A DNA stretch of 52,230 nt, counting the filler, from Sphacelaria rigidula (lineage: Eukaryota), in assembly GCA_964200075.2 (NCBI GenBank). It is 4 parts of 4 records of this genome, joined end to end, with 100 filler letters (N's around TTAATTAATTAA, not from the genome) between each part and the next. Parts side by side here need not be neighbours in the genome. Positions count along the whole stretch, not along the records: positions 26,167 to 39,149 come from CAXNAA020003250.1; 3 more parts are not named here. One strand, written 5' to 3'. Each line of letters starts with the position of its first letter. The first letter of the stretch is position 1. The position numbers and the translations under genes are program-made. The notes under the pieces are model-generated. The model was not told the DNA's origin and made no database searches. It saw nothing but the letters and a program-made list of their open reading frames with translations. Below, in pieces: positions 5,372 through 39,257 of the stretch.

Positions 5372-7157
5372 GCGCAGCTGTCGATACGACGAGGCAGGGG
5401 TCAGGTCTGATGGAAAACAGCGATAACAAGCGGGGACATTCTCTGTCGACCGTGACAAGTGGGGGGCGAGATGAAAGTCCGCGTCACCGGGTATTGCCAC
5501 AGTCTGCGCCACCCGACACCTCGAACGACACAGGTGGCAAATTAGGTTCGACTGAAGATGGAACTGATGACAGCCCAAGGGAGTATTCTTCAAGCCTTCG
5601 GTACCCGTGGCTTTCCCTGCCCGATTTCTTCAACTCTGCACGAGTGGAAGGGGAAAAGGTGAAACAGCAGCCAGCCGCAGGTCGACTAGCCCAAGCGTTC
5701 TCCCAGAGATGGGCCGGGTGGGCAACACACCCCGCCAGCGCCTCAAGCACAATTACAGCTCCAACTCCATCTGCAACGGCAACTGCAAGCACAACGCACG
5801 ACGACTGTGATGTAGAAGAAGGACAGGAATGTGAGGACAAGGACTCGCGTGAGCATTCGGGCGCGGACGGCGGTGTCACCTTCCGTGGAGCACGTCATTT
5901 TGACCGCGAAGCTCTCATTCTAGACCCGAGCGAAAACCAACCATTACACCACTGGGGGAACCGCACACCAGCACCGACGGCAGCCTCACCTCCAGTCTCT
6001 CTCACGAGCGGTGGCGATATGTTCTCGCGTCCTTCCGAGCCCTCTTCCTCGAGCGTTGCCGCCGGCGACGAAGCAGCAGACATGTCGCACGTACAAGTAG
6101 CACCGCCCTCACACTTGCCGTCATCACCAGGTAATTTCGCCGCCGCGAATGCTAGGCTCAAAGCATTGCTCTCTGCTCAAGCAGACGACGTCGATCTTGA
6201 TGATGGGGACAGTACCAATGTCGTGGACAACATAGATCTCGGCGAGGACTTTGCTGCGGAAGTGCTGCGAGGAGGATATTCGGAATCGCTGGTTGGCCCT
6301 CAAACATTACCGTCGACCATGCGGGCCCCTCTCTCCGACGCAGCAGCTGGTGGTGTTGACGATGGCGGAAATCGTGATAGTTCTGGTTTTACTGGCTGGT
6401 ATGCTGGTGATGGTCCTATAAAGGGGTCGTTCGCCGTCGATGAAAGTGCACGCAACGACGCAAGCCAACGTGGTGTAGCACACGATGGGCCTGCCGCCCA
6501 CGATGCAAATTCGGAACGTGCGAGCCACCAAGACGAGCGGGAGAGGAAAAGTATTGGATCGCTGTTGGGTTCAGTGCTGACGGGGCGAAACAGACAACCT
6601 GCACTGGAGAGAAGCAACGATGGCGGTAGCAGCAGTAGACGCAGCAGGAGCCGATCATCGCCTCAATCTAAACCTGGGCAGTCCATCTCACCGCGCCAGT
6701 TCGTCTCACTATCGGGAGGAGGCGGCGGTGGAGCTTTGAGCGAGAGAAGCGGAGGATCGTTGTCTAGACGGACAGCGAAGTTATTTTCTCGTTCCACTTC
6801 ACCGGCGGCTTCATCTCGCTATGCTAACGAAACGAAGCCCACGCAAAAGCAACGGCAAACCCTGGCATTATTGTCTGGTGGAGAAGGAGGTCGACCTGAT
6901 ATTAAACGTCATGGGTACGAGCATGGAGGTGACACCGCCATGAACAATGCAGCTGGAACGGTACCTGCTGTTGCTGCGGCAGCAGCTACCACGGTGACAG
7001 CACACGTCGGGTATACCACTAGAAATCGCATGCCTTCTGGTTCGCCGAAATCTGGGACGGAATTAGACGGCAACGCTGCGAGAAAAGTCTCGCCATGCTT
7101 CTTCCACGGAGATTCACAGCGCTCCGATAGGGGGCTCTCTCTTAAAGAGATCGTTCT
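5372..7157 (+). CDS. Exon C (large, Ser/Gly/Ala-rich, probably disordered)
   Basis: Within 614-aa ORF 5317-7161; acceptor gactcAG| (phase 1); donor CT|GTGAGG at 7158 (phase 2). Confidence 0.8.
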
Positions 7158-7481
7158 GTGAGGAAGTTTAGTACTCAAGTTTCGATTGGAGGGGCTGTCG
7201 GCTGTCGGGTGCAGGAGCGCGAATGGCTACGATATTGGAGGGACGTATCCTGTATATTGCATCTCCGCGCTTGTGGAAAGACCATGCTGAATATCGTCAT
7301 GCATGGGAGTAGCGGTACGTCCTTCCGGTGTGTATTTTGCGTTCGTACTAAGCGTTGGGAATATTTGTGTATATCACGTGTTTCATGGTGGTGGGTGTTC
7401 TCTCACGGCCCCGTATACGGAAGTGCCGTTTGGTGTCGGTCTACATACGGGGAGAAACGTGTACTATTCGGTGACCTACAG

Positions 7482-12360: not shown

Positions 12361-13083
12361 TGAAAGTGTCGAATTACTATTAAGTGTAAGTGTACTCTTT
12401 GGAGTCAGTCGAGGTAGGTGAAGTTCAGAGTTGGCACAAGATAACATAAATAACAGGTTTTTCTTTTTTCATGCTTGTCGTGCTATCGCTTGGTATTGGT
12501 GGCACTGACTTATGGGACCGATTCCATGAATCCACACAAATCTTCAGCCTTCGGGGTCCCATGTGCACTTATAATTGTCCAGATTAGCTACATCAGCTAC
12601 AACAAATGGCGCATACAACAACTATGATAGCAACCTTTTTTCGGTCTTGTTCCTGTTGCGTTCGTGCAGGCAAGCCGTTTTTTGCTGTGCTACACTATCG
12701 CAGATGTCGTAATGATGACGCACTGCATTGCATCACAATCGAACGACCACAGTGCGTTGCATCTTGTTGTCACGATGATATGCAGGCAATCCTGAGAAAT
12801 GGGAACAAGCTTCTTCTATGGGAACGAATTGTGTATTGTTAGGCTTAGTGCCCATGAGACGTGCCTTAAAGGCAGCCTTTCTTTGAGGGATACTATTATA
12901 GGTTCAATAGGATGTAACAGCCGATCCTATTTTTTGGGGTTGAAACATAAAATGAGGTTGAAGTCCCATTTCTCCATTCCAGGNNNNNNNNNNNNNNNNN
13001 NNNNNNNNNNNNNNNNNNNNNNNNNNNTTAATTAATTAANNNNNNNNNNNNNNNNNNNNNNNNNNNNNNNNNNNNNNNNNNNN

Positions 13084-24914: not shown

Positions 24915-25707
24915 GCGTTGGATTGGATAGGCCACAGCTACTGAATCGCGGCATCAATATTCACTTCGAAAAAGTGTGCGTAATCCAGACAGACAACCCG
25001 CACCGCGGTCCATGGGTTACGGTTGTAGGGGTAGCGATAGTTGTAAAATGTGTCAACTATGAACATACTTCATAATTTAGCCCAACGCTAGTAGTTACCC
25101 TTAGACTGCGATGCGGGTAGTCCACCTGGATCTCGCACACTTTTGCAAGTGAAATTGATGCCGATTCAGCAGGTCGCCTACCGTGGCGGTCAAAGTGTCA
25201 AACCTTAGACCCCGGTGCGGGTAGTCCATCTGGATGACGCATGCTTCTTTGAAGTGAATAGTGAATACTGATGTTTTGATGCCGATTCAGCAGGTGACCT
25301 ACCCTCGTGGTCGAAGGGTTATAACCCTTTGACCGCTATGGTAGTCCATCCGGATCATGCATACGAGCATCTTTTTTCCAAGTGAAATTCATGCCATATC
25401 AACAGATGACCTACTCTAGCTGTCCAATTAAGGCTTAGACCGCGATCGAGGGTAGGTCACCTGCTGAATCGGCATCATCTTCACTTCATACTACTTGTAG
25501 TTACTTGGACCGGGAGCATAGTCCATCTGGACCACGTACACCTTTTTCAAGTGAAGATGATGCTGATTCAGCAGGTGACCTACTCTCGTCGTCTAGGGTT
25601 AACCCTTCGACCACGAGGGTAGTCCATCTGTATGATGCATACTTTTTTTCAAGTGAAATTGATGTCGATTCAGCAGGTGACCTTCCCTCGCGCGGTCTGA
25701 TGGTTAA
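24915..25707. repeat. Cluster of ~7 piggyBac-type ~100-bp MITE units
   Basis: Repeated CCCTTAGACCGCG...AAGTGAAATTGATGCCGATTCAGCAGGTGACC...CGGTCTAAGGG units, two inverted; GGG-TTAA-CCC junction at ~25596-25605. Confidence 0.8.
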
Positions 25708-25873
25708 CTAGCCTCACTATTTTGAAGGAGGCCTCTTGACCCACTGGTCGGAAAAAATGGTTGATGCGAATAATGAGGCGCCTCCTACATACCTCGAACG
25801 CTGACCCTAACCCTGACCACGGCGAAGACATACCGAGAACCCTCGGGCGAGGGGGGTGCAAAGTGCTCCTTAA

Positions 25874-25971
25874 CCCTTAGACCGCGAGATTAGTCTTTCT
25901 GGATCACGCATACTTTTTTTCACTTGAAATTGGTGCCGATTCAACAGAAGACTAACCTAGCGGTCTAAGGG
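25874..25971. mobile_element. 98-bp piggyBac-type MITE with TTAA TSD
   Basis: TTAA|CCCTTAGACCGC...GCGGTCTAAGGG|TTAA; interrupts the third copy of the CCCTAA element. Confidence 0.9.
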
Positions 25972-26166
25972 TTAAGCACAGTGTGCGTTTCCAGAGCTCA
26001 AATAGATGCCTTTCAGCCGATTTTGGAACAAAACACGTTCTGGACAAGCTGGGTCTATTGCTCACCNNNNNNNNNNNNNNNNNNNNNNNNNNNNNNNNNN
26101 NNNNNNNNNNTTAATTAATTAANNNNNNNNNNNNNNNNNNNNNNNNNNNNNNNNNNNNNNNNNNNN

Positions 26167-26240
26167 CTCCGCCCCGGCATTGTAGGGATGCGAGGTCAAT
26201 GGTCTGATGACTATGGCACGCATGATCATGAGTACACCCC
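26167..26240 (-). repeat. Copy of GGGG-TACTCAT/GACGGAGC family, truncated by gap
   Basis: Reverse complement matches 29968-30043. Confidence 0.8.
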
Positions 26241-26844
26241 ACGTCAGCTACTGACGGCGTCGGCACGCACAAGTGAGTACAAAGAAGAAAGCAGCAATGG
26301 AATAGGGCCGAAGTGGGAGGCATCCAGAGACCTCAAGAATATAGCACGTTTCGTAGTTTGCAGCCTCCCATCCCGCTATTACCAAAATCTCGTACCAGCC
26401 CCTCTCAGACACGAAGTGCAAAACAAGACCGTGAGCGGGAAAGACCTGCCCAACACGGTCGCGGAGGGAAACTCAATAGACATCAACAGAACAAAGCTTC
26501 CACGTGAAACATTGTCAATTCCCCCTCCCTCGTTTCTATCTTACACAGATGTCCTCCCCTTTGTTCTTTGATCTTGAAACCCCACTCACTGCCAAACCTT
26601 TCCCACACCAATTTCCGTTCCTCCTTGTAATCTTGAACTATCTGCCAACGTCCATATCTACTGATGCACTTCTTACCCTTTTCATAGTTTAGAGGTACAC
26701 TTCAAGCCCATGTACGCAATGTTTCGCGGTCTACAAAGGAAGCTGCCCGCCAATAAAACTCCGCCCGCCCCTTGCGCACAGATACCTCACTCGCACCGTC
26801 GCTTTACCGGATACCAGCAGGAAAAAAAGCGTGCACCCATCCTT

Positions 26845-27486
26845 TCACGAGGTACCAGACACATTCAATTCAAACTTCACGTCGGTTTCCTTCTTTTTAG
26901 ATATCACATCATCCCCAGCGTCTACATCAAATGCTGACTCCACCCGTGCCGTCCGGCGTAGCCGCTTTGTGTCCCTTCTATTGGCGATGCTGCAGCCCGC
27001 GCTCCCGTTTCTGGTCGTGCTGCCGGAGCCGCCAAGGGCCATGCTGTCGCAGCTACTGGATCGCGCAGTAACTAGTTCGCTACTTGTTAACTTCTCATTA
27101 ACTCGCTCAGGCGCAATGGTCGTTTCCATTTCCACTTTCACGCGCGTTTCTTCTCCACCAGAAGAAACACTATTTGCTCCCGCCGCGCCGGGGGGCTGTC
27201 CCGAGGCGGCAGGCAACATGGCTGTAGAATTCGCACCCGGTCCCCTGGCACGAGTGGCACACGAGCTCCGGCGAGGATCAGCGTTACGACCACCATCCTT
27301 TGTCGTAGGACCGGCATCCGATGGATGGCTGGGTCTTTCACCTCGTCCATCAACACCGACGCTAGTGTCTTCTACGGCTAAGTCATCGTTCGGGCGGTTG
27401 TCCCCCCGGATCTGTCCTGCGGCATCAGACGCCATGGTCAAGCGATGTCCAGCTTGATGGCAGGTACTCCGGTGCTCCGGCACCCG
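26845..27486 (-). pseudogene. C-terminal low-complexity tail of the EsV-1-7 protein, in frame behind a single TAA
   Basis: ...TGT TCG TAA CGG GTG CCG...: same frame as 27487-29016; ~213 codons with RRDTKRLRR, VKVE and VKFE. Confidence 0.75.
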
Positions 27487-29016
27487 TTACGAACAGCGCT
27501 GAAAGGCACGTTCATTGCCGTGCACGAAGATCATCCCTACGCCGGCGTGTGTGGCGCAGAACTCCACCCTCCTGCTACCGGCTGCACCGAACGATGGTCG
27601 TGTAAAGCACCCCTCATAGCCGCACGCTGTGCGTCTTACATAGACCATGCCCGCTCGGGCGTCTGTGGCGCAGAAATCAGCCTTCCTGCTACCAGCTGCA
27701 CGGAACGATGAGTGCGTGAAGCAGCCCTCCTGGCTGTACCGCCTGCTCCTCACATCGATCATGCCCTCTCGGGCGTGTGTGGCGCAGTACTCAGCCTTCC
27801 TGCTACCGGCTGCACCGAACGATGAGTGCGTAGAGCAGCCCTCCTGGCTGCACCGCCTGCTTCTCACATTGATCATGCCCTCTCGGGCGTGTGTAGCGCA
27901 GAACTCCGCCTTCCTTCTACCGGCTGCACCGAAAGAAGGGACTTTGTAGCAGCTCTCCTCGCTGCACCAGTTGCTTGCCACACCCATCATGTCCACCCGG
28001 GCGTGTGTGGCGCAATACTCCGCCTTCCTGCTACCGGCTGAACCGAACGATGCTCGTTTGGAACATCCATCTTCTGCGCACATCATGCGTGCTACATGGA
28101 CCATGCCCGCTCGGGCATGTGTGGCGCAGTACTCAGCCTTCCTGCTACCGGCCGCACCGAACGGTGGCTGCGTGGAGCAGCCCTCCTGGCTGCCCCACCT
28201 GCTTCTCACATTGATCATGCCCTCCTGGGCGTGTGTAGCGCAGAACTCCGCCTTCCTGATACCGGCTGCACCGAACAAAGGGGATTTGTAGCAGCTCTCT
28301 CGTGCGCACCGCTTGTTTACCAAATTGACCATGCCCGCTCGGTCGTCCGTGGCGCAGCACTCAACCTTGCTGGTACCGGCTGCACCGAACGATGAGTGCG
28401 TGGAGCAGCCCTCCTGGCTGCACCGCCTGCTTCTCACGTTGATCATGGCCTCTCGGGCGTGTGTAGCGCAGTATTCTCTCTTCCTGCCACCGGCTGCACC
28501 GAACGAAGGGGTTTTGTAGCAGCGCTCCTCACTGCACCGCTTGCTTGCCACATCGATCATGCCCGCTCTGGCATGTGTGGCGCAGAACTCCGTCTTCCTG
28601 CCAACGGGTGCACCGAACGAAGGGTATTTGTAGCAGCCCTCCTCGCCGCACGTAGTGCGTACTACATTCACCATGTCCGGCTGGGCGTGTGCGGCGCAGA
28701 ACTTCGCCTTCCTGCTACTGGCTGCACCAAACGATGGGTATGTGGAGCAGCCCTCCTCGCTGCAGCGCTTATTCACCACATTGACCATGTCTGCTCGAGC
28801 GTGTGTGGCGCAGAACTTCGCCTTCCTGCCACCAGCTGCACCGAACGATGGGTATTTGGAACAGTCCTCCTCTACGCACCGCTTTTTCTTCACGTCAACC
28901 ATGCCCACTCGAGCGTGTGTGCCGCAGAACTGCGCCTTCCTGCCACTGGCTGCACCGAACAACGCTCGTTTAGAACAGCCCTCTTGTACGCACCGCTTGT
29001 TCTTTACGTCAACCAT
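27487..29016 (-). CDS. EsV-1-7 cysteine-rich repeat protein (13 full 38-aa repeats); possibly a pseudogenising allele
   Basis: 114-bp/38-aa tandem units MVNVxxKRCxxEGCSKxPSFGAAGxRKAEFCATHARxG match the EsV-1-7 motif; no introns in the array. Confidence 0.9.
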   Translation of the reverse strand: MVDVKNKRCVQEGCSKRALFGAASGRKAQFCGTHARVGMVDVKKKRCVEEDCSKYPSFGAAGGRKAKFCATHARADMVNVVNKRCSEEGCSTYPSFGAASSRKAKFCAAHAQPDMVNVVRTTCGEEGCYKYPSFGAPVGRKTEFCATHARAGMIDVASKRCSEERCYKTPSFGAAGGRKREYCATHAREAMINVRSRRCSQEGCSTHSSFGAAGTSKVECCATDDRAGMVNLVNKRCARESCYKSPLFGAAGIRKAEFCATHAQEGMINVRSRWGSQEGCSTQPPFGAAGSRKAEYCATHARAGMVHVARMMCAEDGCSKRASFGSAGSRKAEYCATHARVDMMGVASNWCSEESCYKVPSFGAAGRRKAEFCATHAREGMINVRSRRCSQEGCSTHSSFGAAGSRKAEYCATHAREGMIDVRSRRYSQEGCFTHSSFRAAGSRKADFCATDARAGMVYVRRTACGYEGCFTRPSFGAAGSRRVEFCATHAGVGMIFVHGNERAFQRCS

Positions 29017-29440
29017 GCCCGCTCGAGCGTGTGTGACGCAGAACTCGGCCTTCCTGCCACTGGCTGCACCAAACGATGCTCACATAAAGCACCTTGTTTC
29101 GCCGCACCGCATGCCTCCTATATCGACAAGGCCCGCTCGGGCGCGTGTAGCACAGTACCCCGTCTTCATCCCCCGTCTGCACAAAACAACAGGTATGTGA
29201 AACGGCCCTCCTCCTGCACCGGTTGCTTACCACGCAGCCTGGGCACGCTCGGGCGTGTGAGGCGCAGAGTTCCGCTCTCCTGCACCCGGCTAGACCGAGC
29301 GGAGGGAACTCGGAGCACCCCTTCTCGCACACCCGCCTGCTTACTTTGTCGACCCTTCTCGCCCACGTGTATACGGCGTAGTATCCCGTCTTGTCCCTAC
29401 TCGCTACGACAGATGATGCCGCTGTGGTTTAATCCGTGCG
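29017..29440 (-). pseudogene. Decayed upstream EsV-1-7 repeats
   Basis: In-frame TGA at 29080-29082 (CFM*ASFG vs CSKRASFG); frameshifted CEKGCSEFPPLG...ELCASHARA further upstream. Confidence 0.75.
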
Positions 29441-29952
29441 GGTGCATCAAATGGGCATCCCTTCCACGACAATACTAGAGAAAGGGATCGAGGCTGCGGT
29501 AGTCTCACTGCGGCTGCCGCAATTCACACCGTCTCCAATCCGTCCAAGGGGACAAACGCATTATTCCAGCAGCAGCCTCCAACAAACAACCACTAAAGAT
29601 AACATTAGGCCCTGCTCGTGTGAAAGGTAGGTGGGCTGTCAATATCATTTTTTTGTGGTCGCAATCAGGCACCTGGACTAGCGTTGACGGAGAAGGTAAC
29701 CGTGGCGTCGCCAGGTAACGAGGATTGCTGCTCCGGCACCGTCGCTCCAGGGGGGGTGCGCTTCGTTTATAATAAGCGAAGTGTCGATACTATTATTGCC
29801 GCGCGTCGGGACGACCGAAGACAGGAAAGCATGTTCAACTCTGAACATGCACAGCGATCAAGAGTGCCGAGATTGTTTGCATGGTTCTTTCACCCATCAC
29901 ATTTACTCAAAACATGACGCGCTAACGGCCACCCTGCTCTGTGCACCTCACT

Positions 29953-30141
29953 TTTGGGGGGGGGGAGGGGGGTCGTACTCATGATCATGCATGCCACAGT
30001 CATAAGACCATTGACCTCGCATCCGTACAAAGCCGGGACGGAGCACGCCGGGTTTTCGCCGGACCAGGGGGGGGGGCGTACTCATTCGTTGCTTGCCTTG
30101 ATCGTTTGGCCATTGACCACGCATCCCTTTCGAGACGGAGC
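29953..30141 (+). repeat. Longest copy of the bipartite GGGG-TACTCAT/GACGGAGC family
   Basis: Two related submodules, each G-run-CGTACTCAT...CCATTGACC.CGCATCC...GACGGAGC. Confidence 0.8.
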
Positions 30142-30239
30142 ATTCGGCACCTCATATTGGGGGGATACAAACGATCGACACCCACTTCATGTCGGTGACA
30201 TCACTCAGCAATAAACGTTTGGCGCCAAAAGTTCATACT

Positions 30240-33031
30240 AGCGAGATGATATAGCCGTGTGCAGCATACGCCGATTCATCACGTGTTTAGGATACCGTCA
30301 TGCGCCGTTGGGAGATAGCACCCCATCCTGTGTGAATAGGCGAAATGTGCGGAACACTGGATGTGGTGGCTATCGACATTGACCCGAGAGTTACGCATGC
30401 CACTGCACCCACAATACGGCCCTCGCCAGGCGGCATTACAACAGCAAGCTGTGCTCACATCATTCGCTTCTGTCGCCACCTGCATCGGAAAACTACATAC
30501 CTCCGAGCGAGGGATGTGTGGGGAATACACCCGTGTTTGATATTGATGCTACACTGCGGCGGTTGATTTCGATGGACATTTTCGCACCCGCGCTGATAGC
30601 TCCACCAAGGTAGATGCACGTCCCTGTCTGCTTATACTGTTGATCGGCAGCTTTGAAGTTCAAGGCGGTCACCGTGGGACTAGGTACTGACCAGAGGCGC
30701 ATTGGACACTACCTCGCTCTCGGAGACCTTTAGGCCGAATTCTTGGTAGGTCATCACTATCACGGCCATCAGTCGAGCAAGGCCGTCTGACGTCTTCGAG
30801 GCTGTGCCGGCGTCGTCCGCATGAAGCATCGCCCACACCGCGCGTCGAATCGGTTTTAGCGATGTCTCTTGCACGGCTTCACCACGGTCACATTTTGGCG
30901 CATCATCTAAAACGACTGAGTGTAAGATGATAACTGGGTGCGCCGCAAACCGCTGAACGATCATCTTCACCAATCTTGCTTCCAAAATGTTGAACATTAG
31001 AGGGGACGAAACGCAACCTTGTCTGAAGCTCTGGCAGACATGAAACCACGCTGATAGTTCGCCACTATCTAGCTGTACCCGAGCTCGCATGCTGCCGTAA
31101 AACATTGGAATGATCGTGATAATTGGCGACGGAACTCGGGACCGAGCAAGCACTTCCCACAGGAGCGTGCGGTCTACGGAATCGTAAGCTTTCTGCAGAT
31201 AGATAAAGCACATGTTCATTGGGACATTGTTCGTCCGTCCCAACTCCTGAGATTGACATACTACGAACATCATGTCTGTGGTCGAGCTTTGGCGCCAAAG
31301 GCCGCATCGTTCTTCGGAGAAGACATCGTTTTCCTCACAAACACTACTTAGCCTGTTGGCCACGATTATGACTGGAACTTTAGCAGTATATGACACAAGG
31401 GAAAAAAATCCCTTTGGAGTTACCACACTCGGTCCTATTCTGTGTTTGTGTAGCACTTTGATGAGGACATGTTTCCATTCTTGCGGCACCTCGCCAGATC
31501 TCCAAACCGCTGAGACGATGCTGTGGAAGTGGTAGAGAATCTTCGACGCCTCCTCGTTCAGTCCAAGCTTCTGGAGTTTAGCAGGAACACCATCCGGACC
31601 GGTTGCTTTGCCGTTCGACACAGCTCTTAGAGCCTCCTCAGTTTCAATTGGACTTGGCGCGTCTCCTATTCATAGCTCTATTGGTCGTTAAGCAATCATC
31701 TTGATGGCGGTTTGGTCGATATTCGCCGAGATGGCGTTCAGCACTGTGGAGAAGTACCGACCCCGTCTCCCACTGATCAAACCTTTGTCCCGCAGTGAAT
31801 TGCCGTCCTCATCTTGAATGTACCGCTCACTCTCGACTGGTCGTCCAGACAGTCTCCACCCTCTATTGAGATGTCTGTACCATTCTCCCATGCCCTCCAC
31901 TCGAGTATGTGTTGTCGTCTTATCTATTGTGGGCACCGGTCTACACCTTTCGATATAATGTGTGGGCGCACGAGTCGGGATCACACAGAACGCAGGTTAG
32001 CACAGGATGTTTTTTGTTTTATACGCCGCAATCCTTCTACGGTGCTTCCCTTTATTTTTTATCGCGAGAGGCGTTCAGCAGTCCCTTTCCATGGTTTAGT
32101 CGTTCTTGTGTACCCACGGCATAGTCGCGCTCCACTGTTGGGCATCGTGTGAGAAACAATCCCGGACCGCACCGATATTCGAAATCACGACCCAACCGTC
32201 ACAAGGTTTCGACATTACTAACTGAGCCACCGGGGCGACCGGCGAGCGACATGTAGCGGGTATACCCCTCTAGTTCTCCAGCATACACATCCAAAAAATA
32301 TATCTACCTAAACTTGGATCACCTCTTTGATTTTATTCATGCTGCTCGTGATGTGCGCTATGCGGGTTTATCTCGAGAAAGTCCCAGTTTCACCGTTGAT
32401 CTCGCCCATTTTCCTCTACACCCAGGCCTGTTCGAATTCGGTTCTGACTTCAGCATCCTCGAACCACCCCCGGTAAATGTGGCTGTCGGGTCAAAGGGGA
32501 TACCCCCTTCTCCGCGGCGCTCAAGAGTACGTCGACCAAGGTCGTAGCCAGCGAACTGATTCCATCACCAGATATACTCCGTTTGATCTCGCCGACGAGT
32601 AGCTGGGTTAGAGTCTGACGTCTGTGGGGGTCAGATACTATTGCCTGTCTTTCGATCGGTCTACCCCCAATTGGGATTGATCTAGGTCTGTCGTGTGCGA
32701 AGCGACCAAGCAGCCGCACTGAGGCGCACACGATGTGGTGGTCAAAGTCCGGCGATATGGGGAGTTGAGAGTGGACGGTAACATTGCGAACAAGGCTGCA
32801 GTAATCTCGCCGTGTGAGAGTATAGTCAATGTGTTTCTTGTCCACGGGGCGATTCGCAACACCGTGGGACGTAGGCGAGGTCCTTTTCTTGGTGATGAAA
32901 ACAAACGTGTTGACCAGGGGAAGCTTATGATCGCCCGCGAAGTGCATTTAAAATTGCCCGCGTGGGACCCGAGAGACATACCACGGTAGTTGCCGCATTC
33001 GTGCGGGTCCTGTTTCTTGAAAAGCGCCTTG
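30240..33031 (-). mobile_element. Degenerate RTE-type LINE (APE endonuclease C-terminus + RT), SINE-interrupted, with a second RT fragment fused upstream
   Basis: KATGPDG, GEVPQEWK, KAYDSV, RQGCVSSP, LHADD in 30680-31621; HIDY...DHH in 32450-32947; KKQDPHECGNYRGMSL at ~32970-33030. Confidence 0.9.
31905..32243 (-). mobile_element. tRNA-derived SINE inserted in the LINE
   Basis: Homologous to 15146-15526; head GCCGGTCGCCCCGGTGGCTCAGTT. Confidence 0.85.
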
Positions 33032-33281
33032 GACACCCCCTAGGATACCCCCGTCTGACACCCAGCCCAAACCTCTCACGAAGGAAATGATCGTACTGCG
33101 CCTGATGTTTGGTTTCAGACCGCGTGAAGCGCCTCATATGGGCGACGTTGGCAAAAAACAAACCCAAGCGCGGCAATTCCCATACCTTGTTGAGCTCGGC
33201 TTATTTTATTTCAATCAATGTCCAGATTTTTTCTCCCTGAACTAGCCATAGTTTCACGGGGGGGCTGTCGTAGAAAGTGTC
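33032..33281. mobile_element. MITE with GACAC...GTGTC ends and 4-bp TSD (CTTG)
   Basis: cttg|GACAC...TAGAAAGTGTC|cttg; interior matches 34222-34464. Confidence 0.75.
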
Positions 33282-33288
33282 CTTGATG

Positions 33289-33538
33289 GACTGCTGCCGA
33301 GATAGCCCCCCCCCGAACCGGCCAAAAAAGTGCACGAAGGCAATGATCATAAATGCCGTTAGAGCTGGTTTGGTGCTGCACGACGCGACTCATTTGGGCA
33401 TTATAGCTGGTTTTGGGATTGCTACAGGCCTCCCGCGTGGGCGAAATTGCTGCAAACGAGCCCAGTAATGAGATCGCAGCCGGTTTGTCCGCCGGTCTCC
33501 GGTGCACTTTTTGTGGGGGGGCTATCTCGGCATGAGTC
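33289..33538. mobile_element. Related MITE with TGCCGAGATAGCCCCCCC inverted repeats
   Basis: 33295-33312 mirrored at 33515-33532; GAC...GTC ends; no TSD seen. Confidence 0.7.
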
Positions 33539-33699
33539 TTCTGATCCGAATGTTTGCTGTTTTTTTATCTTGAATCAAACCTCATCATAGGTGGGTAACT
33601 TTGGGAATACCTCGGTATTTCCTCTACCCGAGTTTGAGTATCGTGCGTACGGACTTGAATATTGAAGTTGAAGTTATAGGTTTTCGGCACATCAGATAA

Positions 33700-34095
33700 T
33701 CTACTCGACGTTTGAGTAGGTCGAGTACGACCTCAAATACTCTACTCAAAGTTTGAGTAGATCGAGTACGGCCTCCGATACTCTACTCAGAATTTGAGTA
33801 GGTCGAGTATGGTCTCCAATACTCTGCTCGAATTTTGAGTAGATCGAGTACGACCTCAAATACTCTACTCAAGTTTTGAGTGAGTACTCTCAGTAATACT
33901 CAAGTATAGAGTATCACTTGAGTATGACCTCAATACTCTACTCAAAATTTGAGTAGATCGAGTACGGCCTCAAATTAAATACTCTACTCAAAATTTGAGT
34001 AGGTCGGGTATGGTGTCCAATACTCTACTCAAATTTTGAGTACTAAAAGTATGACTCTTCAAAAATACTGAGTATTGAGTATACTCTACTCGACC
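33700..34095. repeat. ~39-bp minisatellite with palindromic core
   Basis: ~9 units of AATACTCTACTCAAAATTTGAGTAGGTCGAGTACGACCTCA. Confidence 0.85.
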
Positions 34096-34221
34096 TTATT
34101 ATTATTGTTATATTATTATTATATCCATCACATTAGCTCGATCCCTCGAACCCGTGGTCGACCTACCCTTGCAATATTATCCCCCCTGGCGGCACATGGG
34201 GAATTGGATTTGTGCTGGTAA

Positions 34222-34464
34222 GATACTTTCTACGATAGCCCCCCCAAAAAACCAGCTAAAAGTGTCACGAAAAAAATGACCATACAGCGCCTGATGTTCG
34301 NNNNNNNNNNGTTCAGGCTGCATGAAGCGCCTCATATTGGCGACATTGGCTAGAACGAACCCAAGCGTGGGAATTCCCAGCTTCTCGTTGTGCTCGATTT
34401 ACGTGAAGATTTTGCCTCCCAAAAAGATGCACTCTTGGGGGGGGGGGCTATCGTAGAAAGTGTC
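34222..34464. mobile_element. MITE with ~24-bp TIR and 4-bp TSD (GTAA)
   Basis: gtaa|GATACTTTCTACGATAGCCCCCCC...GGGGGGGCTATCGTAGAAAGTGTC|gtaa. Confidence 0.8.
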
Positions 34465-37005
34465 GTAACATCATACCAATCTCTCGAGCCATTGGGAACC
34501 GCCGAACGAGGACACACAATGGACACGGACGAGGAGCTGCCTCTCCACCGTTGCTCCTCCGGTGGTATCGCCATCGACACGCGTGTACACCGCAGTCGTT
34601 CCATGAACCTATCCACACCTGCTGAACTGCTACAGATTTTTGTGGGTAAAAGATGCTTTCCCTTGTTGTAGCTGTTTGGCACGATTCCTGCAAAAACGTT
34701 ATGCCGTTTGAACCTCATTTTTGTGTTCAACCCCATTTTTGAGAATCGCGATTGCTAGTTATTTGTTTGCCATAAGAACCGGCCTGTGATGCCGAGTGGT
34801 GACGGCCCCACCGACGAAACAGGAGTCGGCACAGCACGTGTGCGTATGTACGTTATATCGCCCGCGGCGATCCCAAAGGCACGACTCATGGACCACCCCA
34901 GCAAAAAAGTCATGCACATCTTTGTAGCGGCTTTTCAATCGGCGGGCGACGGTGAACTTCCCATGAAATGGTTCGGGGGAAGATGACTCCAAGAATAAAT
35001 GCGGCGCAATTACTGCCCGCGCTCATTTTGGATACCAGCCTACGCGTGGCTCTGATTCGGTGGTTTTGCACCGTGTCCTACTTATCCCATCACCTCCGCA
35101 CTTAGATGACAATGTCTCGATGCACACAGCAACTGCAGAGAAAAATCGAGTTGCTCTGTGTAGCTACGACGCGTACCTACCAGTCCTGTATCTGTTCTGG
35201 CTCCGAAGACCCTTGCTGATGAAAATCGTGAGGTAAGGTGAAGCTCATCTCTTCGTTGAAACTTTGCACTATCCCAAAAGGTGATTGATGAAATTTCATG
35301 TTGGTTAATAGTAGCACGTTTTATCAGCTTCCTGCTTCATGTGCAGTGCGATTCATCCTTGTTGATCGCGTGTCTGTCGATCATGCTGAATAATGGCTTG
35401 TACAGATATCGCTAAATGTTGCGGAGGGTTATCCCTCGTTTGTGTGCTGCTGTACTGGGTGGAATTGAAGTGGACTTCGATGGAGGCTTAGCTTCGAATA
35501 CCCATTATCACTATACGTCACTATCGCTGTCATTGTTGTACCTTGACAACTTATATTGCTCCGTCGGCTCCCGTTCTTGGGGTGGTGGTGAACAACGTGA
35601 TGGTTTTCCTCGAGTGGTCGATCGCGGGTCGAACGGGCATATTGGAAAATGACATCTTCGGGCGTACCAAGAGCAACGCGTGAATAAGCTGCTTCGAGAG
35701 AGGTATCCATCGCTGGGTTGTGCGCTGTACGGTATGTACTTGAGCCAATCGTTCCAAGGACATACATTCAGACACATACTACAACTTTGTACCGGAACCG
35801 TTTCGATTCCGTGATCTATACACTTCTTTGGCTCTGTCGCGCGTTTGTTCTTGGGGGTGGTGATGAAAAACGTGACACTAAACTGGGTGCAGCAGCGGTT
35901 CACCAGGGTGCCTTGGGTACACACAGAATTTTCCCGTCGATTTCCCCGCGTGATTTTGAGCTTGTGAACCGAGGTGATCATGAGGTTGCGGACCGTCATA
36001 ATAATCATGGCCATTGCCACAATATCATTCTCATATTTTTCTTTCGGGGCCTCAGTTATGCGGGCTGATGGTACCGTAGCGTATCTGTACCAAGATGAGC
36101 GGAATACGTCCGTAACCCCCGCATGCACTTGACAGGACCATCTGCACTGCCTGTCTTTGTACTGTTGACTGCCGTCCTGACTGTACACCTAGCTTGGCGT
36201 GCAAGTAGGTGGAAGACAATTGGAAGATAATTGCAAGTGAAAGGGGTTGTCCAGCTAATTACTACGGCTGGTGCTGGTCCCGGTGACGACGAACCGTCGT
36301 CGAACACGAAATACGTTGCCCTCACGAAACTACATTCAACAGTAACGGTGCTTTCGTGATATTGGCCGCGATCAAGCACGACAGCTCGCGAAGGAAGATC
36401 AAGACGGGGGCGGAAGTCCCTTCAGAACAGCAGCAGCAGAAGCAGCAGCAGCTATTGCCAGTGAGCATCATGTGGTGAGTGCTGTGTTCATGTATGGGCG
36501 AGGAGGGACGAGGAGGCACGGGAGTTGCCACGGAAAGCAAACGTAGGGGATGGCGATTACCGCGCACACCCCCAACCGTCGAATGCAAAAACAGGAAACA
36601 ACAAACGTGCTTCCACACCACACCTGTTCCGAAATCGCACTTCCGAAGAGTCATACCCGTGAACCGGGGAATTCATGTCTCGGCGAGCTCATGGTCTCAA
36701 CTGTCGAGAGAGTTTCCCATGTGGAGCACGTGAGGCACACGACTTGAACATGGATTGGTCTTGCAAGGTCGCCAAACACGCGTGGTCATCAGTTAATGTA
36801 CCACGTAAAATCATAGTCAGCGTCGATGAAGAATGTTCAACAGTTCTTTTTGTGAGAGTAGAGTAGTACTTGTACTACAGTGCAACAGCAAGATCGTCTG
36901 TGTAATACCACACCATGGACAATAAGAGACGACTGCTTGACTACAGACTTATCACCAGAGTATGATAAAACATTGCGGCCAACGAAAGCCCCGAGAATGT
37001 GTTGA

Positions 37006-37103
37006 CCCTTAGACCGCGAGATTAGTCTTTCTGGACCATGCATACTTTTTTTCACTTGCAATTGATGCCGATTCAACAGAAGACTAACCTCGCGGTCTAA
37101 GGG
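37006..37103. mobile_element. 98-bp piggyBac-type MITE, solo copy
   Basis: TTGA|CCCTTAGACCGCGAG...CTCGCGGTCTAAGGG|TTAA; nearly identical to 25874-25971. Confidence 0.9.
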
Positions 37104-37269
37104 TTAATTTTCACCGTCAGTCACGCGTGACTGGCATCGCTGTCCATCAATAGGCTCTGAATCGCAGACAAGGGCACTGCGCAAAGGTGTTCGTCGCAAA
37201 AGGCTGTGATTCGCGTGCAGCAATGCCCCTTGGTAGTCACAGTACGACCTGAATCGCGTCCATCACTAC

Positions 37270-37600
37270 TGTTGTGCCAGTTCGGAGAAACGATTATCTG
37301 GGACATGGGAGTCTTTTTCATCCTCGGAAGTACTATTGCGGTCGGTGTGTCGAGGACCCAGCGCAATGTATTGCTGTCCACTACTGAGGTGGAGTACGTC
37401 GCAGCTAATGGGGTGGCAAAGGATATGCTGTCCGTGCGGGGGATCAATGGGTTCTGGCGGCCACTTAAACCTCTGAATTGCGGCCATCATGTCTACAGCT
37501 GGCCACAATAATGGCAACCGAACGTGTCCATCAATAGCCAGCCGTTGATCCATCATCCAAAGATGCACATTTGACAAGAGTTGATGTGGGGCGAAAGTGT
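37270..37600 (+). mobile_element. Ty1/Copia RT-RNaseH remnant
   Basis: SRTQRNVLLSTTEVEYVA matches the Copia SxxQxxVxLSTxEAEYVA motif. Confidence 0.8.
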
Positions 37601-37863
37601 TGGTTGTGTGCGTACACTGGAATGTGTGCATTTCATTTTTCCGATCTTGGACGCTCGTGGCAATTTGTAACTTTAATTTTTTCCACGTGTTTTTTTTTGT
37701 GATCCAGCCGTGCAGCGGCCACTCCAGTCGAAAGTTGTGTTTGCATACAAGCTGGCCCGGGTTGGATGTGATATTTGCTTTTGGTTCAAGAATTATGGAT
37801 TATTTGGGATGTAGAAGAGACGTAAAACTCACACGAACAAAACTGCGAAACAAAAAAAGCAAG

Positions 37864-38741
37864 TTTGCTTCGGCTCAAGAGTTCTGGTATTATGTGTTGT
37901 CCCGTTTCCACGTACGGCAGTGTCTCACTGGAATTACCGCAAATTAAAATGCCTGCAACCAAAAACAAATCGAACTCAAAGCGGTATGCACTCGGTGCAT
38001 TTTTTGTCCCCATGAACTCATCAACCACTACATACTATTAATCAGGCTTACCCGAAAATCGACGCTGACGACTATGTTATTACTATCCCCTGCGGAGCTA
38101 TCCACCTCTCCCCCTACTGTTACGGTAGAGCTACTCCACACAGTCACCTATCCACTTTTTGCACCCTGGTTCCACCCTTTCTTGAGCGACGGGACGGCGG
38201 GTGGGAAAGTCGACCGATTCTCTGCGAAGCGCGCTAATTCGTGCCTACTTCTCCCTACTTGTGCTGAATATACCAGTCGGCCGCTGCTAGATGAATGCTA
38301 CTTGTTGCTGGTGATGGTATCTGTACTCGTGTGTGCGGCAACCTAGCTGCGATGGCCAACTTTTCTACTGACAGCGGCACTGCAGCTGGGAAACAAGGAC
38401 AGACACCGTACCGTTTTTCTGCACGTACGTCCCACATTGTCAGAATTCGTACACGCCTACGCAAACACCGCTTTCATACTGAACGCTACATTTTGCTTCG
38501 GCTCAAGAATTTTGGTATTATGTGTTGTCCCGTTTCTACGTACGGCAGTGTCTCACTAGAATTACCGCAAATTAAAATGCCTGCAACCAAAAACAAATTG
38601 AACTCAATGCGGTATGCACTCGGTGCATTTTTGTCCCCATGAACTCATCAACCAATACATACTATTAATCAGGCTAACCCGAAAATCGACGCTGACGATT
38701 ATGTTATTACTATCCCCTGCGGAGCTATCCACCTCTCCCCC
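37864..38741. repeat. Two ~250-bp highly similar direct repeats (37864-38114 and 38492-38741)
   Basis: TTTGCTTCGGCTCAAGA...GGAGCTATCCACCTCTCCCCC present twice with a ~377-bp spacer. Confidence 0.9.
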
Positions 38742-38800
38742 ATCAGGCGAACCTGATTGGCAGTCGAGTATCTTGTTAAACTCTAACTTTTAGCGTCTCG

Positions 38801-39149
38801 CTACCCTACTCGCTGTTCTCCTAGCGCTACGGAGACGTCCTCTGCGCCCTCCCCCGCCTCCCTGACGTAAACCATAAACGCCCTCGACTTCCACCGTCCT
38901 GCTCGTTGAATCTGTAGTTCGGAGATTCTTGGAGCCGCTAGATGCGTGGCCCCGCCGATCCTGCCTGACTGTAAGGCGTATTCGGCCGGGTCTCTACCCG
39001 CACGGCTGACCATGGTTCTTAGCGCTGTTACTGCTTCAATCCGAGTAAAAGCCTTCCATCCCGTCGGCGTGGCTCTCGTGGTCAGGGGGGCGTGGCCTGG
39101 CAGTTGTGGGTGCACGTCCAACAAGTCCAAAAGCGCCTCGAACGCGCCC
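38801..39149 (-). mobile_element. C-terminal tyrosine recombinase of a DIRS/Ngaro-type retroelement (cut by gap)
   Basis: YALQSGRIGGATHLA...IQRAGRWKSRAFMVYVR fits HSxRxGGAT...GRWxS...Y; catalytic His reads Gln. Confidence 0.85.
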
Positions 39150-39257
39150 NNNNNNNNNNNNNNNNNNNNNNNNNNNNNNNNNNNNNNNNNNNNTTAATTA
39201 ATTAANNNNNNNNNNNNNNNNNNNNNNNNNNNNNNNNNNNNNNNNNNNNCACTTAAA

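What the first reader, a model, noticed from the sequence alone, without database searches (positions are those of the whole stretch)
27487..29016. EsV-1-7 array resembles a modular zinc-finger/TALE-like recognition code
Seen: 13 exact 38-aa units with a nearly invariant scaffold C9-x4-C14-x16-C31-x2-H34, F20-G21 and basic R26-K27. Variation is concentrated at a few positions. Position 17 reads R,Y,Y,Y,T,H,S,Q,R,V,H,H,R; positions 15-16 read SK/ST/YK/FT; positions 5-6 read KN,KK,VN,VR,AS,RS,VN,RS,AR,AS,RS,RS,RR. Known: EsV-1-7 repeats occur in phaeovirus EsV-1 and are expanded in brown algae (e.g. Ectocarpus IMMEDIATE UPRIGHT); I know of no established molecular function. Inference: a basic CCCH-type tandem array with a fixed frame and hypervariable polar/aromatic residues parallels C2H2 fingerprint residues and TALE/PPR codes. 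It could be a reprogrammable DNA/RNA-binding system, e.g. a stramenopile analogue of KRAB-ZFPs acting on the abundant TEs or viruses.
Basis: partly seen in the sequence, partly recalled or inferred. Interest (0 to 1): 0.85.

Follow-up and report, generated by a model that had tools for sequence, protein, structure and literature searches.

The report
Truncated EsV-1-7 zinc-repeat gene copy
A gene made of 13 tandem cysteine-rich EsV-1-7 units is really there, but a stop codon cuts it off from the tail that its relatives carry, and the idea that its variable residues form a DNA-reading code remains an interesting, untested lead.

Summary

The locus is larger than reported and is damaged:
- At least two decayed units with stops or a frameshift lie upstream.
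- Past the TAA that ends the ORF, the same frame stays open for 213 more codons. These are 45-50% identical (E down to 2e-44) to the C-terminal tails of Sphacelaria rigidula EsV-1-7 proteins.
- So this is probably a recently truncated copy or pseudogene of a fast-turning-over, lineage-specific subfamily.

The "code" idea is partly supported:
- In 139 multi-unit relatives, positions 17, 6 and 5 have the highest within-protein entropy in 2000 of 2000 bootstraps.
- They hold only 13% of the total entropy, so variation is broad.
- They are conserved among close algal (mostly Ectocarpus) orthologues (2 changes in 129 columns). They change faster than average in metagenomic clusters and at the average rate at 65-90% identity.
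- omega at these sites is 1.6, which is not significant.

AlphaFold models are confident per unit, but no solved fold matches. Nucleic-acid binding rests only on basic charge and on fusions reported elsewhere. EsV-1-7 as a putative zinc finger is already published. Verdict: new member of a known kind, moderate-to-low interest.

The parts
27490..29016 (-). Open array of 13 tandem 38-aa EsV-1-7 units (114-nt period), 509 codons, starting at the Met of unit 1
   Evidence: exact 38-aa units, PF19114 with 13 stretches and E 1.7e-169, TRF period 114
27487..27489 (-). In-frame TAA that separates the array from the conserved tail. Paralogues have K, N, T or D at this codon.
   Evidence: DNA contigs of runs X1 and X2 cover it without differences (table 8, records 1 and 9). 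These runs may be the assembly's own sample.
26848..27486 (-). 213-codon continuation of the same frame. It is homologous to the C-terminal tail of Sphacelaria rigidula EsV-1-7 proteins, contains a conserved basic TKRLRR motif, and ends at TGA 26847..26845, about 13-20 aa before the paralogues end.
   Evidence: 45-50% identity over 206-214 aa, E 2e-44 to 3.5e-29 for 9 paralogues; alignment; 23 representatives with E <= 0.001 in 1.84 billion; 2 of 20000 shuffles stay open; the other frames have 10 and 18 stops
29017..29130 (-). Decayed unit 0, in frame with the array, with a TGA at unit position 17 (29082..29080)
   Evidence: (76% to the reference copy)
29131..29342 (-). Further decayed array remnants. 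One degraded unit is followed by a frame-shifted unit at 29243-29342. There are three more stops in the array frame.
   Evidence: translation; copy at 29243-29342, 71%; PF19114 E 0.007, 16.6 bits, below cut-off, in another frame
27649..28446 (-). Span that contains the young unit subfamily: units 6 (28333-28446), 8 (28105-28218), 11 (27763-27876) and 12 (27649-27762). They are 85-92% identical in DNA, and all three ligand-defective units belong to it.
26167..26245 (.). Arm of a 79-nt inverted repeat (87% complementary) that brackets the locus. The partner arm is 29965-30043. The element carries G-runs.
   Evidence: The very high contig depth may be a poly-G artefact.
29965..30043 (.). Second arm of the inverted repeat

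Best explanation
This is a real but probably disabled copy of a lineage-specific EsV-1-7 repeat gene.

Shown here:
- The gene type is an N-terminal run of 38-aa C-x4-C-x16-C-x2-H modules that starts at the first Met, followed by a conserved tail of about 200-240 aa.
- In this copy the array grew to at least 16 units by in-register duplication of 114-nt units. The latest burst produced units 6, 8, 11 and 12.
- The three most upstream units have since decayed.
- A TAA now ends translation one codon before the tail, so at most a 509-aa tail-less array could be made.

Inferred:
- Each unit folds round one zinc ion, with the first knuckle C9..C14 followed by a small hairpin at positions 20-22 and 28-30 and a short helical turn carrying C31 and H34.
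- Intact family members act in the nucleus as basic multi-finger proteins that bind nucleic acid, most likely DNA.
- Residues beside the first knuckle (5, 6, 17) contribute most to differences between units.
- A one-unit-per-base-group code is possible but not shown.
For: Array and family:
- 13 units, PF19114 E 1.7e-169.
- In 119 homologues the median stretch before the first unit is 14 aa (quartiles 0-48), the median C-tail is 205 aa, and 105 of 119 have a tail of 150 aa or more.

Truncation:
- The frame continues past the TAA for 213 codons. These align end to end with the tails of 9 Sphacelaria rigidula proteins at 45-50% identity, E 2e-44 to 3.5e-29.
- The paralogues read this junction as coding, with K/N/T/D at the stop position and no gap that would suggest an intron.
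- Only 2 of 20000 shuffles of the tail DNA stay open.

Upstream decay:
- Unit 0 has a TGA, and further remnants are frame-shifted.

Recent neutral-looking change:
- Units 6, 8, 11 and 12 are 85-92% identical, with dN/dS 0.56-0.86.
- Of their 19 private amino-acid changes, 9 hit family-conserved positions (7.5 expected if uniform) and 1 hits 5/6/17.

Older constraint:
- Scaffold omega is 0.17-0.26 against 0.65 overall.

Fold:
- AF2 gives mean pLDDT 82.1 for 4 units and 76.1 for 2 units, with strands at unit positions 1-3, 20-22 and 28-30 and a helical turn at 32-34.

Nucleic-acid lead:
- pI 9.38, net +37.
- Of the 30 viral predicted structures that match the model at E <= 0.001, four are named 'Endonuclease' and one 'DNA primase' (these are UniProt names, not verified here).
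- Positions 17, 6 and 5 lead the within-protein entropy (1.71, 1.65, 1.63; next is 1.37) in 2000 of 2000 bootstraps.
Against: - The 509-codon array frame is still open, and overall omega is below 1 (median pairwise 0.56; 0.65 on the tree). The copy may therefore still be functional as a tail-less protein or may have been inactivated only very recently.
- Four of 119 homologues also have C-tails under 30 aa.
- Ligand loss is not diagnostic. Defective units are 3 of 13 here, 17 of 55 in the annotated Sphacelaria paralogues and 55 of 409 in other homologues.
- The contigs that confirm the TAA (runs X1 and X2, one study) may come from the sample the assembly was built from.
- Expression could not be assessed.
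- Zinc binding, nuclear location and nucleic-acid binding are all inferred. The best, though insignificant, solved-structure matches are RING, B-box, LIM and PHD modules, which mostly bind proteins.
Confidence: 0.6

Rival explanations
1. One reading: the array is a modular, programmable nucleic-acid reader. Each 38-aa unit contacts a fixed number of bases through a few specificity residues (17, 5-6, perhaps 15-16) on an invariant zinc scaffold, as in C2H2, TALE or PPR arrays.
For: - Positions 17, 6 and 5 have the highest mean within-protein entropy in 139 multi-unit relatives, and are top three in 2000 of 2000 bootstraps.
- Residue use there is rich in R, Q, H, N, S and K.
- On the tree of the 13 units, position 17 changed 11 times non-synonymously against 1 synonymous change, and position 5 changed 8 against 2. 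omega for 5+6+17 is 1.6, against 0.17-0.26 for the scaffold.
- In 10 clusters of algal sequences at 90% identity or more (8 Ectocarpus, 1 Pylaiella, 1 Coccomyxa), these three positions changed in 2 of 129 columns. The expected counts are 6.2 if uniform (P 0.054), 7.65 for the non-scaffold rate (P 0.018) and 12.2 if scaled to the metagenome-set rates (P 0.0005).
- The array is basic.
- A transposase fusion is reported, and some viral matches are named endonuclease or primase.
Against: - The three positions hold only 13% of the summed within-protein entropy family-wide and 17% in this array. Twenty-two of 38 positions here carry 3 or more residue types.
- omega of 1.6 is not significant (P 0.26).
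- In 10 metagenomic clusters at 90% identity or more, the same positions changed in 40 of 153 columns, above the non-scaffold mean of 0.166 (P 0.0045).
- At 65-90% identity they changed at about the average rate: brown algae 22 of 71 against 0.265, metagenome 47 of 119 against 0.344.
- The dipeptides at 15-16 follow unit clades, so they are not independent variation.
- Spacing is 38 aa in 369 of 598 unit pairs and ranges mostly over 35-44.
- Inter-unit geometry is not predicted with confidence (pTM 0.42-0.48).
- No binding data exist.
Confidence: 0.15
2. The 509-aa ORF is an intact, functional, tail-less gene. The stop is the true end of a neofunctionalised array-only protein, and ligand-poor units are tolerated.
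For: - The frame is open for 509 codons, with 13 in-register units and no frameshift.
- Median pairwise dN/dS is 0.56.
- Four of 119 homologues have C-tails under 30 aa.
- Ligand-defective units are as frequent in annotated paralogues (17 of 55).
Against: - The tail is still fully alignable and open in the same frame right after the stop. That fits a recent nonsense change better than an old, selected truncation.
- The youngest units change as often at conserved positions as elsewhere (9 of 19), with dN/dS up to 0.86.
- The upstream part of the array is already decayed.
- The protein itself was not among the hits of a search of 5.8 billion predicted proteins. This is weak evidence.
Confidence: 0.2
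3. EsV-1-7 arrays are protein-protein interaction scaffolds rather than nucleic-acid binders, like LIM, RING, B-box or PHD zinc modules. On this reading the variable positions tune partner choice or are simply loosely constrained surface.
For: - The only solved-structure matches, all insignificant, are RING, B-box, LIM, PHD/PZP modules and the nsp13 zinc-binding domain: VIA Z of 2.8 or less and Foldseek E of 0.81 or more.
- IMM is described as a protein of unknown function (PMC7457493, passage read).
- At moderate divergence, variation is spread almost evenly over non-scaffold positions.
Against: - Strong net positive charge in every unit, +1 to +6.
- Fusion to a transposase N-terminus, where DNA-binding domains usually sit (the usual location is recalled knowledge).
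- Viral matches named endonuclease or primase.
- A sub-threshold Pfam hit to the primase/Mcm10 zinc finger: 22.3 bits against a cut-off of 28.8.
Confidence: 0.2

Closest known systems
EsV-1-7 domain protein family of brown algae (Pfam PF19114; includes Ectocarpus IMMEDIATE UPRIGHT)
   Same: - It has the same Pfam repeat and the same C-x4-C-x16-C-x2-H motif, with tandem units.
- The family is reported as hugely expanded, often lying in tandem gene arrays, and as a possible novel zinc finger (10.1101/2024.02.19.579948, passages read).
   Different: - There are 13 open units here, against 2-11 in the 119 homologues examined and five in IMM.
- The IMM-specific N-terminal domain was not looked for here.
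- This copy is cut from its tail by a stop.
Sphacelaria rigidula tail-bearing EsV-1-7 proteins (P0005, P0043, P0046, P0083, P0025, P0115, P0007, P0011, P0056)
   Same: - The architecture is the same: the array starts at Met 1 and is followed by a tail of about 240 aa.
- The tails are 45-50% identical over their full length, and the TKRLRR motif is conserved.
   Different: - The paralogues have 4-8 units and an uninterrupted frame.
- The window copy has 13 units, a TAA at the junction and an earlier end of the tail.
- No orthologue closer than 63% local identity was found.
Giant-virus EsV-1-7-like proteins (EsV-1 ORF EsV-1-7 and relatives in Marseille-, Pitho-, Cedrat- and Klosneu-type viruses)
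   Same: - The predicted fold of 4 units matches 30 viral models at E <= 0.001. These include EsV-1-7 of EsV-1 (E 1.6e-15, 46% identity).
- P0051-type proteins lie on giant-virus contigs.
   Different: - The viral proteins carry other C-terminal parts. Four are named 'Endonuclease' and one 'DNA primase'; the names were not verified here.
- No viral gene was recognised beside the window locus: Pfam found only a reverse-transcriptase fragment.
C2H2 zinc-finger arrays, including KRAB-ZFPs (works-like comparison only)
   Same: Both are tandem small zinc modules at a near-fixed period. Both are basic, vary in unit number between paralogues and turn over by birth and death.
   Different: - The ligand set and spacing differ (CCCH, 38 aa).
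- There is no Pfam C2H2 or KRAB match at E <= 0.01.
- There is no long recognition helix in the models.
- Variability is not confined to a few contact positions. From recalled knowledge, C2H2 variability concentrates at helix positions -1, 2, 3 and 6.
TALE and PPR repeat codes (works-like comparison only)
   Same: A repeat length of about 34-38 aa, with some positions more variable than the rest.
   Different: - From recalled knowledge, TALE and PPR units are helical hairpins without metal, with specificity in two positions. Here the models are mostly coil and short strands around Cys/His ligands.
- About 25 positions vary.
Primase/Mcm10-type zinc finger (Pfam PF09329 zf-primase)
   Same: - A CCCH/CCHC-type single zinc site.
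- A weak match of residues 178-198 to the C-terminal half of the profile.
- One viral structural match is named DNA primase.
   Different: - The score of 22.3 bits is below the curated 28.8.
- The Mcm10 internal domain appears only at Foldseek E 9.3.

Membership tests
EsV-1-7 cysteine-rich repeat family (PF19114) | Match to the Pfam model above its gathering score | tested here: met
   549.7 bits against a cut-off of 25, 13 stretches
EsV-1-7 cysteine-rich repeat family (PF19114) | C-x4-C-x16-C-x2-H ligand pattern in each unit | tested here: met
   10 of 13 units are intact. Units 6, 8 and 12 lack one or two ligands. A similar defect rate is seen in paralogues.
EsV-1-7 cysteine-rich repeat family (PF19114) | Zinc coordination by the four ligands | not testable with these tools
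Biochemistry is needed.
Sphacelaria-type tail-bearing EsV-1-7 subfamily | Conserved C-terminal tail of about 200-240 aa translated in one frame with the array | tested here: not met
   The tail is present and homologous (E 2e-44) but is separated from the array by an in-frame TAA. The copy is a member by descent but does not have the intact architecture.
Pseudogene (unprocessed, recent) | Premature stop relative to intact paralogues | tested here: met
   TAA at 27489..27487 where paralogues have K/N/T/D. Unit 0 has a TGA, and the upstream remnants are frame-shifted.
Pseudogene (unprocessed, recent) | Neutral substitution pattern | tested here: inconclusive
   The young units have dN/dS 0.56-0.86, and 9 of their 19 private changes fall at conserved positions. 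Overall omega is 0.65, and scaffold omega is 0.17-0.26 over the older history.
Pseudogene (unprocessed, recent) | No functional transcript or protein | not testable with these tools
   No listed holder is on record as RNA, and contigs cannot show expression.
C2H2 / KRAB zinc-finger proteins | C2H2 finger and KRAB-type effector domain recognisable by profile | tested here: not met
   There is no C2H2 or KRAB family at E <= 0.01 for the array and no Pfam family at all for the tail ORF (protein 10).
C2H2 / KRAB zinc-finger proteins | Variability confined to a few base-contact positions | tested here: not met
   The top three positions hold 13% of within-protein entropy family-wide and 17% here. 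Twenty-two of 38 positions have 3 or more residue types.
TALE / PPR helical repeat codes | Two-helix repeat units | tested here: not met
   DSSP on both models shows short strands and one 3-residue helical turn per unit, with no helix of 4 or more residues.
Primase/Mcm10 zinc finger (PF09329) | Match above the curated score | tested here: not met
   22.3 bits against 28.8, on the C-terminal half of the profile only
Any solved zinc-finger fold group | Significant structural match | tested here: inconclusive
   Foldseek against PDB gave a best E of 0.81 (4 units) and 2.8 (2 units). VIA wide gave a best Z of 2.8 and 2.2.

The most novel reading that the evidence does not exclude
EsV-1-7 arrays could be a further natural modular nucleic-acid recognition system, shared by brown algae and giant viruses. 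On this reading each 38-aa zinc unit reads a short, fixed stretch of DNA or RNA. Residues 17, 6 and 5, beside the first zinc knuckle, would set specificity. Arrays would be attached to different effector parts: lineage-specific tails, a Tc1/mariner transposase, and viral nucleases or primases. This would be a natural counterpart of ZFNs and TALENs, and a fast-evolving regulator or defence family in brown algae.
Probability: 0.13. Interest if true: 0.9.

Novelty: new member of a known kind. Interest (0 to 1): 0.35.

Why it matters
EsV-1-7 proteins are described as one of the largest gene-family expansions in brown algae, with 2018 proteins in 31 genomes and the largest orthogroup in a 15-species atlas (passages read). 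One member, IMM, controls early development. Even so, their molecular function is unknown.

This locus adds little in itself. It is an unusually long (13-unit) but truncated copy.

The family-wide analysis it prompted does give a concrete, testable lead. Three positions beside the first zinc knuckle (17, 6, 5) are consistently the most different between units of one protein. They were almost unchanged among close algal (mostly Ectocarpus) orthologues.

If that reflects specificity for nucleic acid, the family would be a new programmable binder and a key to brown-algal gene regulation. If it does not, these positions are simply the loosest part of a small zinc domain.

Tried and rejected
- **Whole genome:** none is held, so per-genome entropy and dN/dS over all EsV-1-7 genes could not be run.
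- **Expression:** no RNA holder is listed. Four runs were laid, all as contigs. X1 and X2 behave like DNA, with even depth of about 18 and 69 on the unique flanks. X8 (guessed to be RNA) has contigs at least 95% alike over parts of the array but none on most unique flanks. That cannot be assigned to this locus or taken as evidence of expression.
- **Intron across the TAA:** I looked by eye for a short intron removing the stop. The candidate GT..AG spans of 74 and 79 nt shift the frame into early stops, and the paralogues read the junction as coding. Rejected.
- **Fold searches:** Foldseek against PDB and VIA wide on the 4-unit and 2-unit models gave nothing significant. A PDB sequence profile search with the 13 units gave only chance Cys-motif hits, E of 0.15 or more.
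- **Model coordinates:** they are not available to scripts, so burial or exposure of positions 5, 6 and 17 could not be measured.
- **Tail identity:** no Pfam family, no Atlas hit, and none found by the word-indexed search among longer proteins (weak evidence, because BLAST and phmmer do find them).
- **Close orthologue of an Ectocarpus member (P0021):** none above 65% identity.
- **Co-domains listed for homologues:** on re-scanning these were mostly overlapping Cys-rich chance hits. There was one copia gag fusion and no nuclease.
- **Viral contigs:** the alignment A1 was unusable, A2 found 1 locus and P0051 found 12 loci. None were analysed further and no nuclease fusion was verified.
- **Rfam on 26167-30700:** no match.
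- **Macaisne et al. 2017 (10.1242/dev.141523):** not held, so its content is known only through citing passages. Supplementary tables of the cited papers were not seen. Table S17 of 10.1101/2024.02.19.579948 may list this gene.
- **Ligand loss as a sign of decay:** rejected as diagnostic after the comparison with paralogues.
- **Complex prediction:** not used, because no protein partner is claimed.
Full report
The minus-strand ORF 27487..29016 encodes 509 aa. It divides into 13 units of exactly 38 aa plus a 15-aa end. Tandem Repeats Finder reports a 114-nt period with 13.5 copies at 27544-29078. Pfam finds EsV_1_7_cys (PF19114) 13 times, at 549.7 bits and E 1.7e-169. C14, C31, F20 and M1 are invariant. 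C9 and H34 are present in 11 of 13 units, and G21, R26 and K27 in 12 of 13. Three units lack a ligand: unit 6 H34D, unit 8 C9G, and unit 12 C9Y plus H34D.

**2. The locus is larger than reported, and it is broken.**
- Upstream in the same frame lies a further unit (29017-29130) with a TGA at unit position 17 (29082..29080). Beyond it are more remnants with three further stops and a frame-shifted unit at 29243-29342.
- Downstream, the TAA at 27489..27487 is followed by 213 more open codons in the same frame. Only 2 of 20000 shuffles of that DNA stay open, and the other two frames carry 10 and 18 stops.
- This stretch aligns end to end with the C-terminal tails of nine Sphacelaria rigidula EsV-1-7 proteins, at 45-50% identity and E 2e-44 to 3.5e-29. 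Four more match more weakly.
- In the multiple alignment the paralogues read straight through the junction, with K, N, T or D where the window has TAA. This argues against an intron there. A basic TKRLRR motif is conserved in all tails. Reading it as a nuclear localisation signal is my inference.
- Among 119 homologues, units start at or near residue 1 (median 14 aa before the first unit). The median C-tail is 205 aa; 105 have a tail of 150 aa or more, and only 4 have under 30 aa.
- The tail family is small: 23 representatives at E <= 0.001 among 1.84 billion. It has no Pfam family and no Atlas hit.
- Contigs of runs X1 and X2 cover both stops without differences, but they may come from the assembly's own sample.
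- The simplest reading is a recent nonsense change in a gene of the array-plus-tail type, in a copy whose 5' units had already decayed.

**3. How the array evolved.**
- Units are 67-92% identical in DNA. Units 6, 8, 11 and 12 form a young clade at 85-92% (support 0.99), and units 5, 7 and 10 form another.
- Annotated paralogues have 3-8 units, and units within one protein resemble each other more than units of other proteins. Arrays therefore turn over by intragenic duplication.
- Median pairwise dN/dS among units is 0.56, and 0.56-0.86 in the young clade.
- Tree-based counts give omega 0.65 overall and 0.17-0.26 for 16 scaffold positions. Position 17 shows 11 non-synonymous against 1 synonymous change, and position 5 shows 8 against 2. 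The pooled omega for 5+6+17 is 1.6, which is not significant (P 0.26).
- The 19 private changes of the young units fall on family-conserved positions 9 times (7.5 expected if uniform) and on 5/6/17 once. That looks neutral.
- Ligand loss does not mark this copy out. Defective units are 3 of 13 here, 17 of 55 in the Sphacelaria paralogues and 55 of 409 in the others.

**4. Is variation concentrated?**
- In this array, position 17 is the most variable (2.6 bits, 7 residue types). It is followed by 7, 5, 3, 25, 37, 6, 10, 8 and 11. Twenty-two of 38 positions have 3 or more residue types, and the top three hold 17% of the entropy.
- The dipeptides at 15-16 track unit clades.
- Family-wide, I extracted 906 units with exact ligand spacing from 206 of 221 representative proteins. 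In the 139 proteins with 4 or more such units, mean within-protein entropy is highest at 17 (1.71), 6 (1.65) and 5 (1.63). Position 32 is next at 1.37. These three are the top three in 2000 of 2000 bootstraps, but they account for only 13% of the summed entropy. An earlier HMM-based sample of 331 units gave the same three leaders.
- Unit spacing is 38 aa in 369 of 598 successive pairs; the rest are mostly 35-44.

**5. Orthologue tests.** A specificity residue should differ between units yet be conserved between orthologues.

| Set | Changes at 5, 6, 17 | Comparison |
|---|---|---|
| 10 algal clusters at 90% identity or more (8 Ectocarpus, 1 Pylaiella, 1 Coccomyxa) | 0 of 40, 2 of 43, 0 of 46 columns | Expected 6.2 if uniform (P 0.054), 7.65 non-scaffold (P 0.018), 12.2 scaled to the metagenome rates (P 0.0005) |
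| 10 metagenomic clusters at 90% identity or more | 14 of 48, 11 of 51, 15 of 54 | Above the non-scaffold mean of 0.166 (P 0.0045) |
| 6 brown-algal groups at 65-90% identity | 22 of 71 | Non-scaffold rate 0.265 |
| 12 metagenome groups at 65-90% identity | 47 of 119 | Non-scaffold rate 0.344 |

- In the first set, fragments under 100 aa were dropped, and 3 of 6 and 3 of 11 members were used in two clusters. Repeats changed in 79 of 1647 columns, against 364 of 3112 outside the repeats.
- The evidence is therefore mixed. It is encouraging in close algal (mostly Ectocarpus) relatives, opposite in the metagenomic set and flat at greater distance.

**6. Structure.**
- AF2 on four units, with a 70-row in-register alignment, gives mean pLDDT 82.1 and pTM 0.42. 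On two units with 112 rows it gives 76.1 and 0.48.
- DSSP shows short strands at unit positions 1-3, 20-22 and 28-30 and a three-residue helical turn at 32-34. The first unit of the 4-unit model has single bridges at positions 8 and 17.
- From this I infer, without coordinates, that 5-8 and 15-19 are the two arms flanking the C9..C14 knuckle, so that 5/6 and 17 are likely neighbours.
- No solved structure matches. Foldseek gave a best E of 0.81 and 2.8. VIA wide gave a best Z of 2.8 and 2.2, to RING, B-box and nsp13 zinc modules. A PDB profile search found nothing.
- Against predicted viral structures there are 30 matches at E <= 0.001. These include EsV-1-7 of EsV-1 (E 1.6e-15), four proteins named 'Endonuclease' and one 'DNA primase'. 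The names were not verified.

**7. What is known.**
[quoted passage not shown] The family has 2018 members in 31 genomes, reaches 335 members in one species, and its genes tend to lie in tandem arrays. IMM has five repeats (10.1101/2024.02.19.579948).
- The genes form the largest orthogroup, are stage-specific and carry no other Pfam domain in Ectocarpus (10.64898/2026.04.27.720984).
- IMM is a protein of unknown function (PMC7457493).
- Searches for 'EsV-1-7' (11 papers), 'IMMEDIATE UPRIGHT' with 'cysteine-rich' (19 papers) and the Pfam/InterPro accessions (2 papers) turned up no passage proposing a residue code or reporting binding data. I read only the matching passages. The founding paper is not held.

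**8. Surroundings.**
- The window contains three N44-TTAATTAATTAA-N44 linkers, at 12984-13083, 26067-26166 and 39150-39249. It is therefore four pieces of about 12,983 nt, and the locus lies at the start of the piece 26167-39149.
- A 79-nt inverted repeat (26167-26245 and 29965-30043, 87%) brackets the locus. It carries G-runs, so its enormous contig depth may be an artefact.
- The only other recognisable coding remnant nearby is a reverse-transcriptase fragment at 30683-31669 on the minus strand (RVT_1, E 9e-11).
- The array is 60% G+C, against 50% for the rest of the piece.
- The long plus-strand ORFs across the array are antisense by-products of the repeat.

**9. Verdict.**
- The locus is a new, unusually long but probably disabled member of a known, already described family.
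- The recognition-code idea is not refuted. It gains one robust fact: positions 17, 6 and 5 lead within-array diversity across the family. But variation is broad, the orthologue and selection tests are inconsistent or non-significant, no nucleic-acid-binding fold is recognised, and nothing about binding could be tested.

Noticed in passing
window 12984-13083, 26067-26166, 39150-39249: There are three identical linkers: 44 N, TTAATTAATTAA, 44 N. They sit at a regular spacing of 13,083 nt, so the window looks like four pieces of about 12,983 nt joined artificially. Neighbourhood across them should not be assumed.
   Followed up: partly
window 26167-26346 and 29875-30168: A short repeated element with long G-runs flanks the locus as an inverted pair (79 nt, 87%). 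The summed contig depth there is 1e5-1e6 in the laid runs. This may reflect poly-G artefact contigs rather than copy number.
   Followed up: partly
window 30683-31669 (-): A reverse-transcriptase fragment (RVT_1, E 9e-11) lies on the same strand, upstream of the array. No other retroelement domain was found in ORFs of 90 aa or more between 29400 and 39149.
   Followed up: partly
window 25099-25963: A cluster of short direct and inverted repeats (48-83 nt, 65-95% alike) that looks MITE-like. It lies in the piece before the linker.
   Followed up: no
window 5317-7161 (+): The longest other ORF in the window (614 aa) has no Pfam family at E <= 0.001.
   Followed up: no
window 26848-27486 (-), and tails of P0005, P0043 and others: A basic motif TKRLRR is conserved near the end of the lineage-specific tail in all nine aligned paralogues and in the window copy. 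It is followed by an acidic DVK-EL end. It may be a nuclear localisation signal.
   Followed up: no
window array residues 178-198: A sub-threshold Pfam match to the primase/Mcm10 zinc finger (PF09329, 22.3 bits against 28.8). Some Ectocarpus relatives give weak partial hits to PF24906 Zf_WRKY19, overlapping EsV-1-7 units.
   Followed up: no
L002-L013 (IMG/VR giant-virus contigs): Twelve giant-virus contigs encode P0051-type EsV-1-7 array proteins at 42-100% identity. They could serve for a virus-side test of which unit positions vary.
   Followed up: no
window 28396-29478 (+) and other plus-strand ORFs over the array: Long open frames run antisense to the array (up to 360 aa). They repeat with the same 114-nt period and are best explained as by-products of the G+C-rich repeat.
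   Followed up: no
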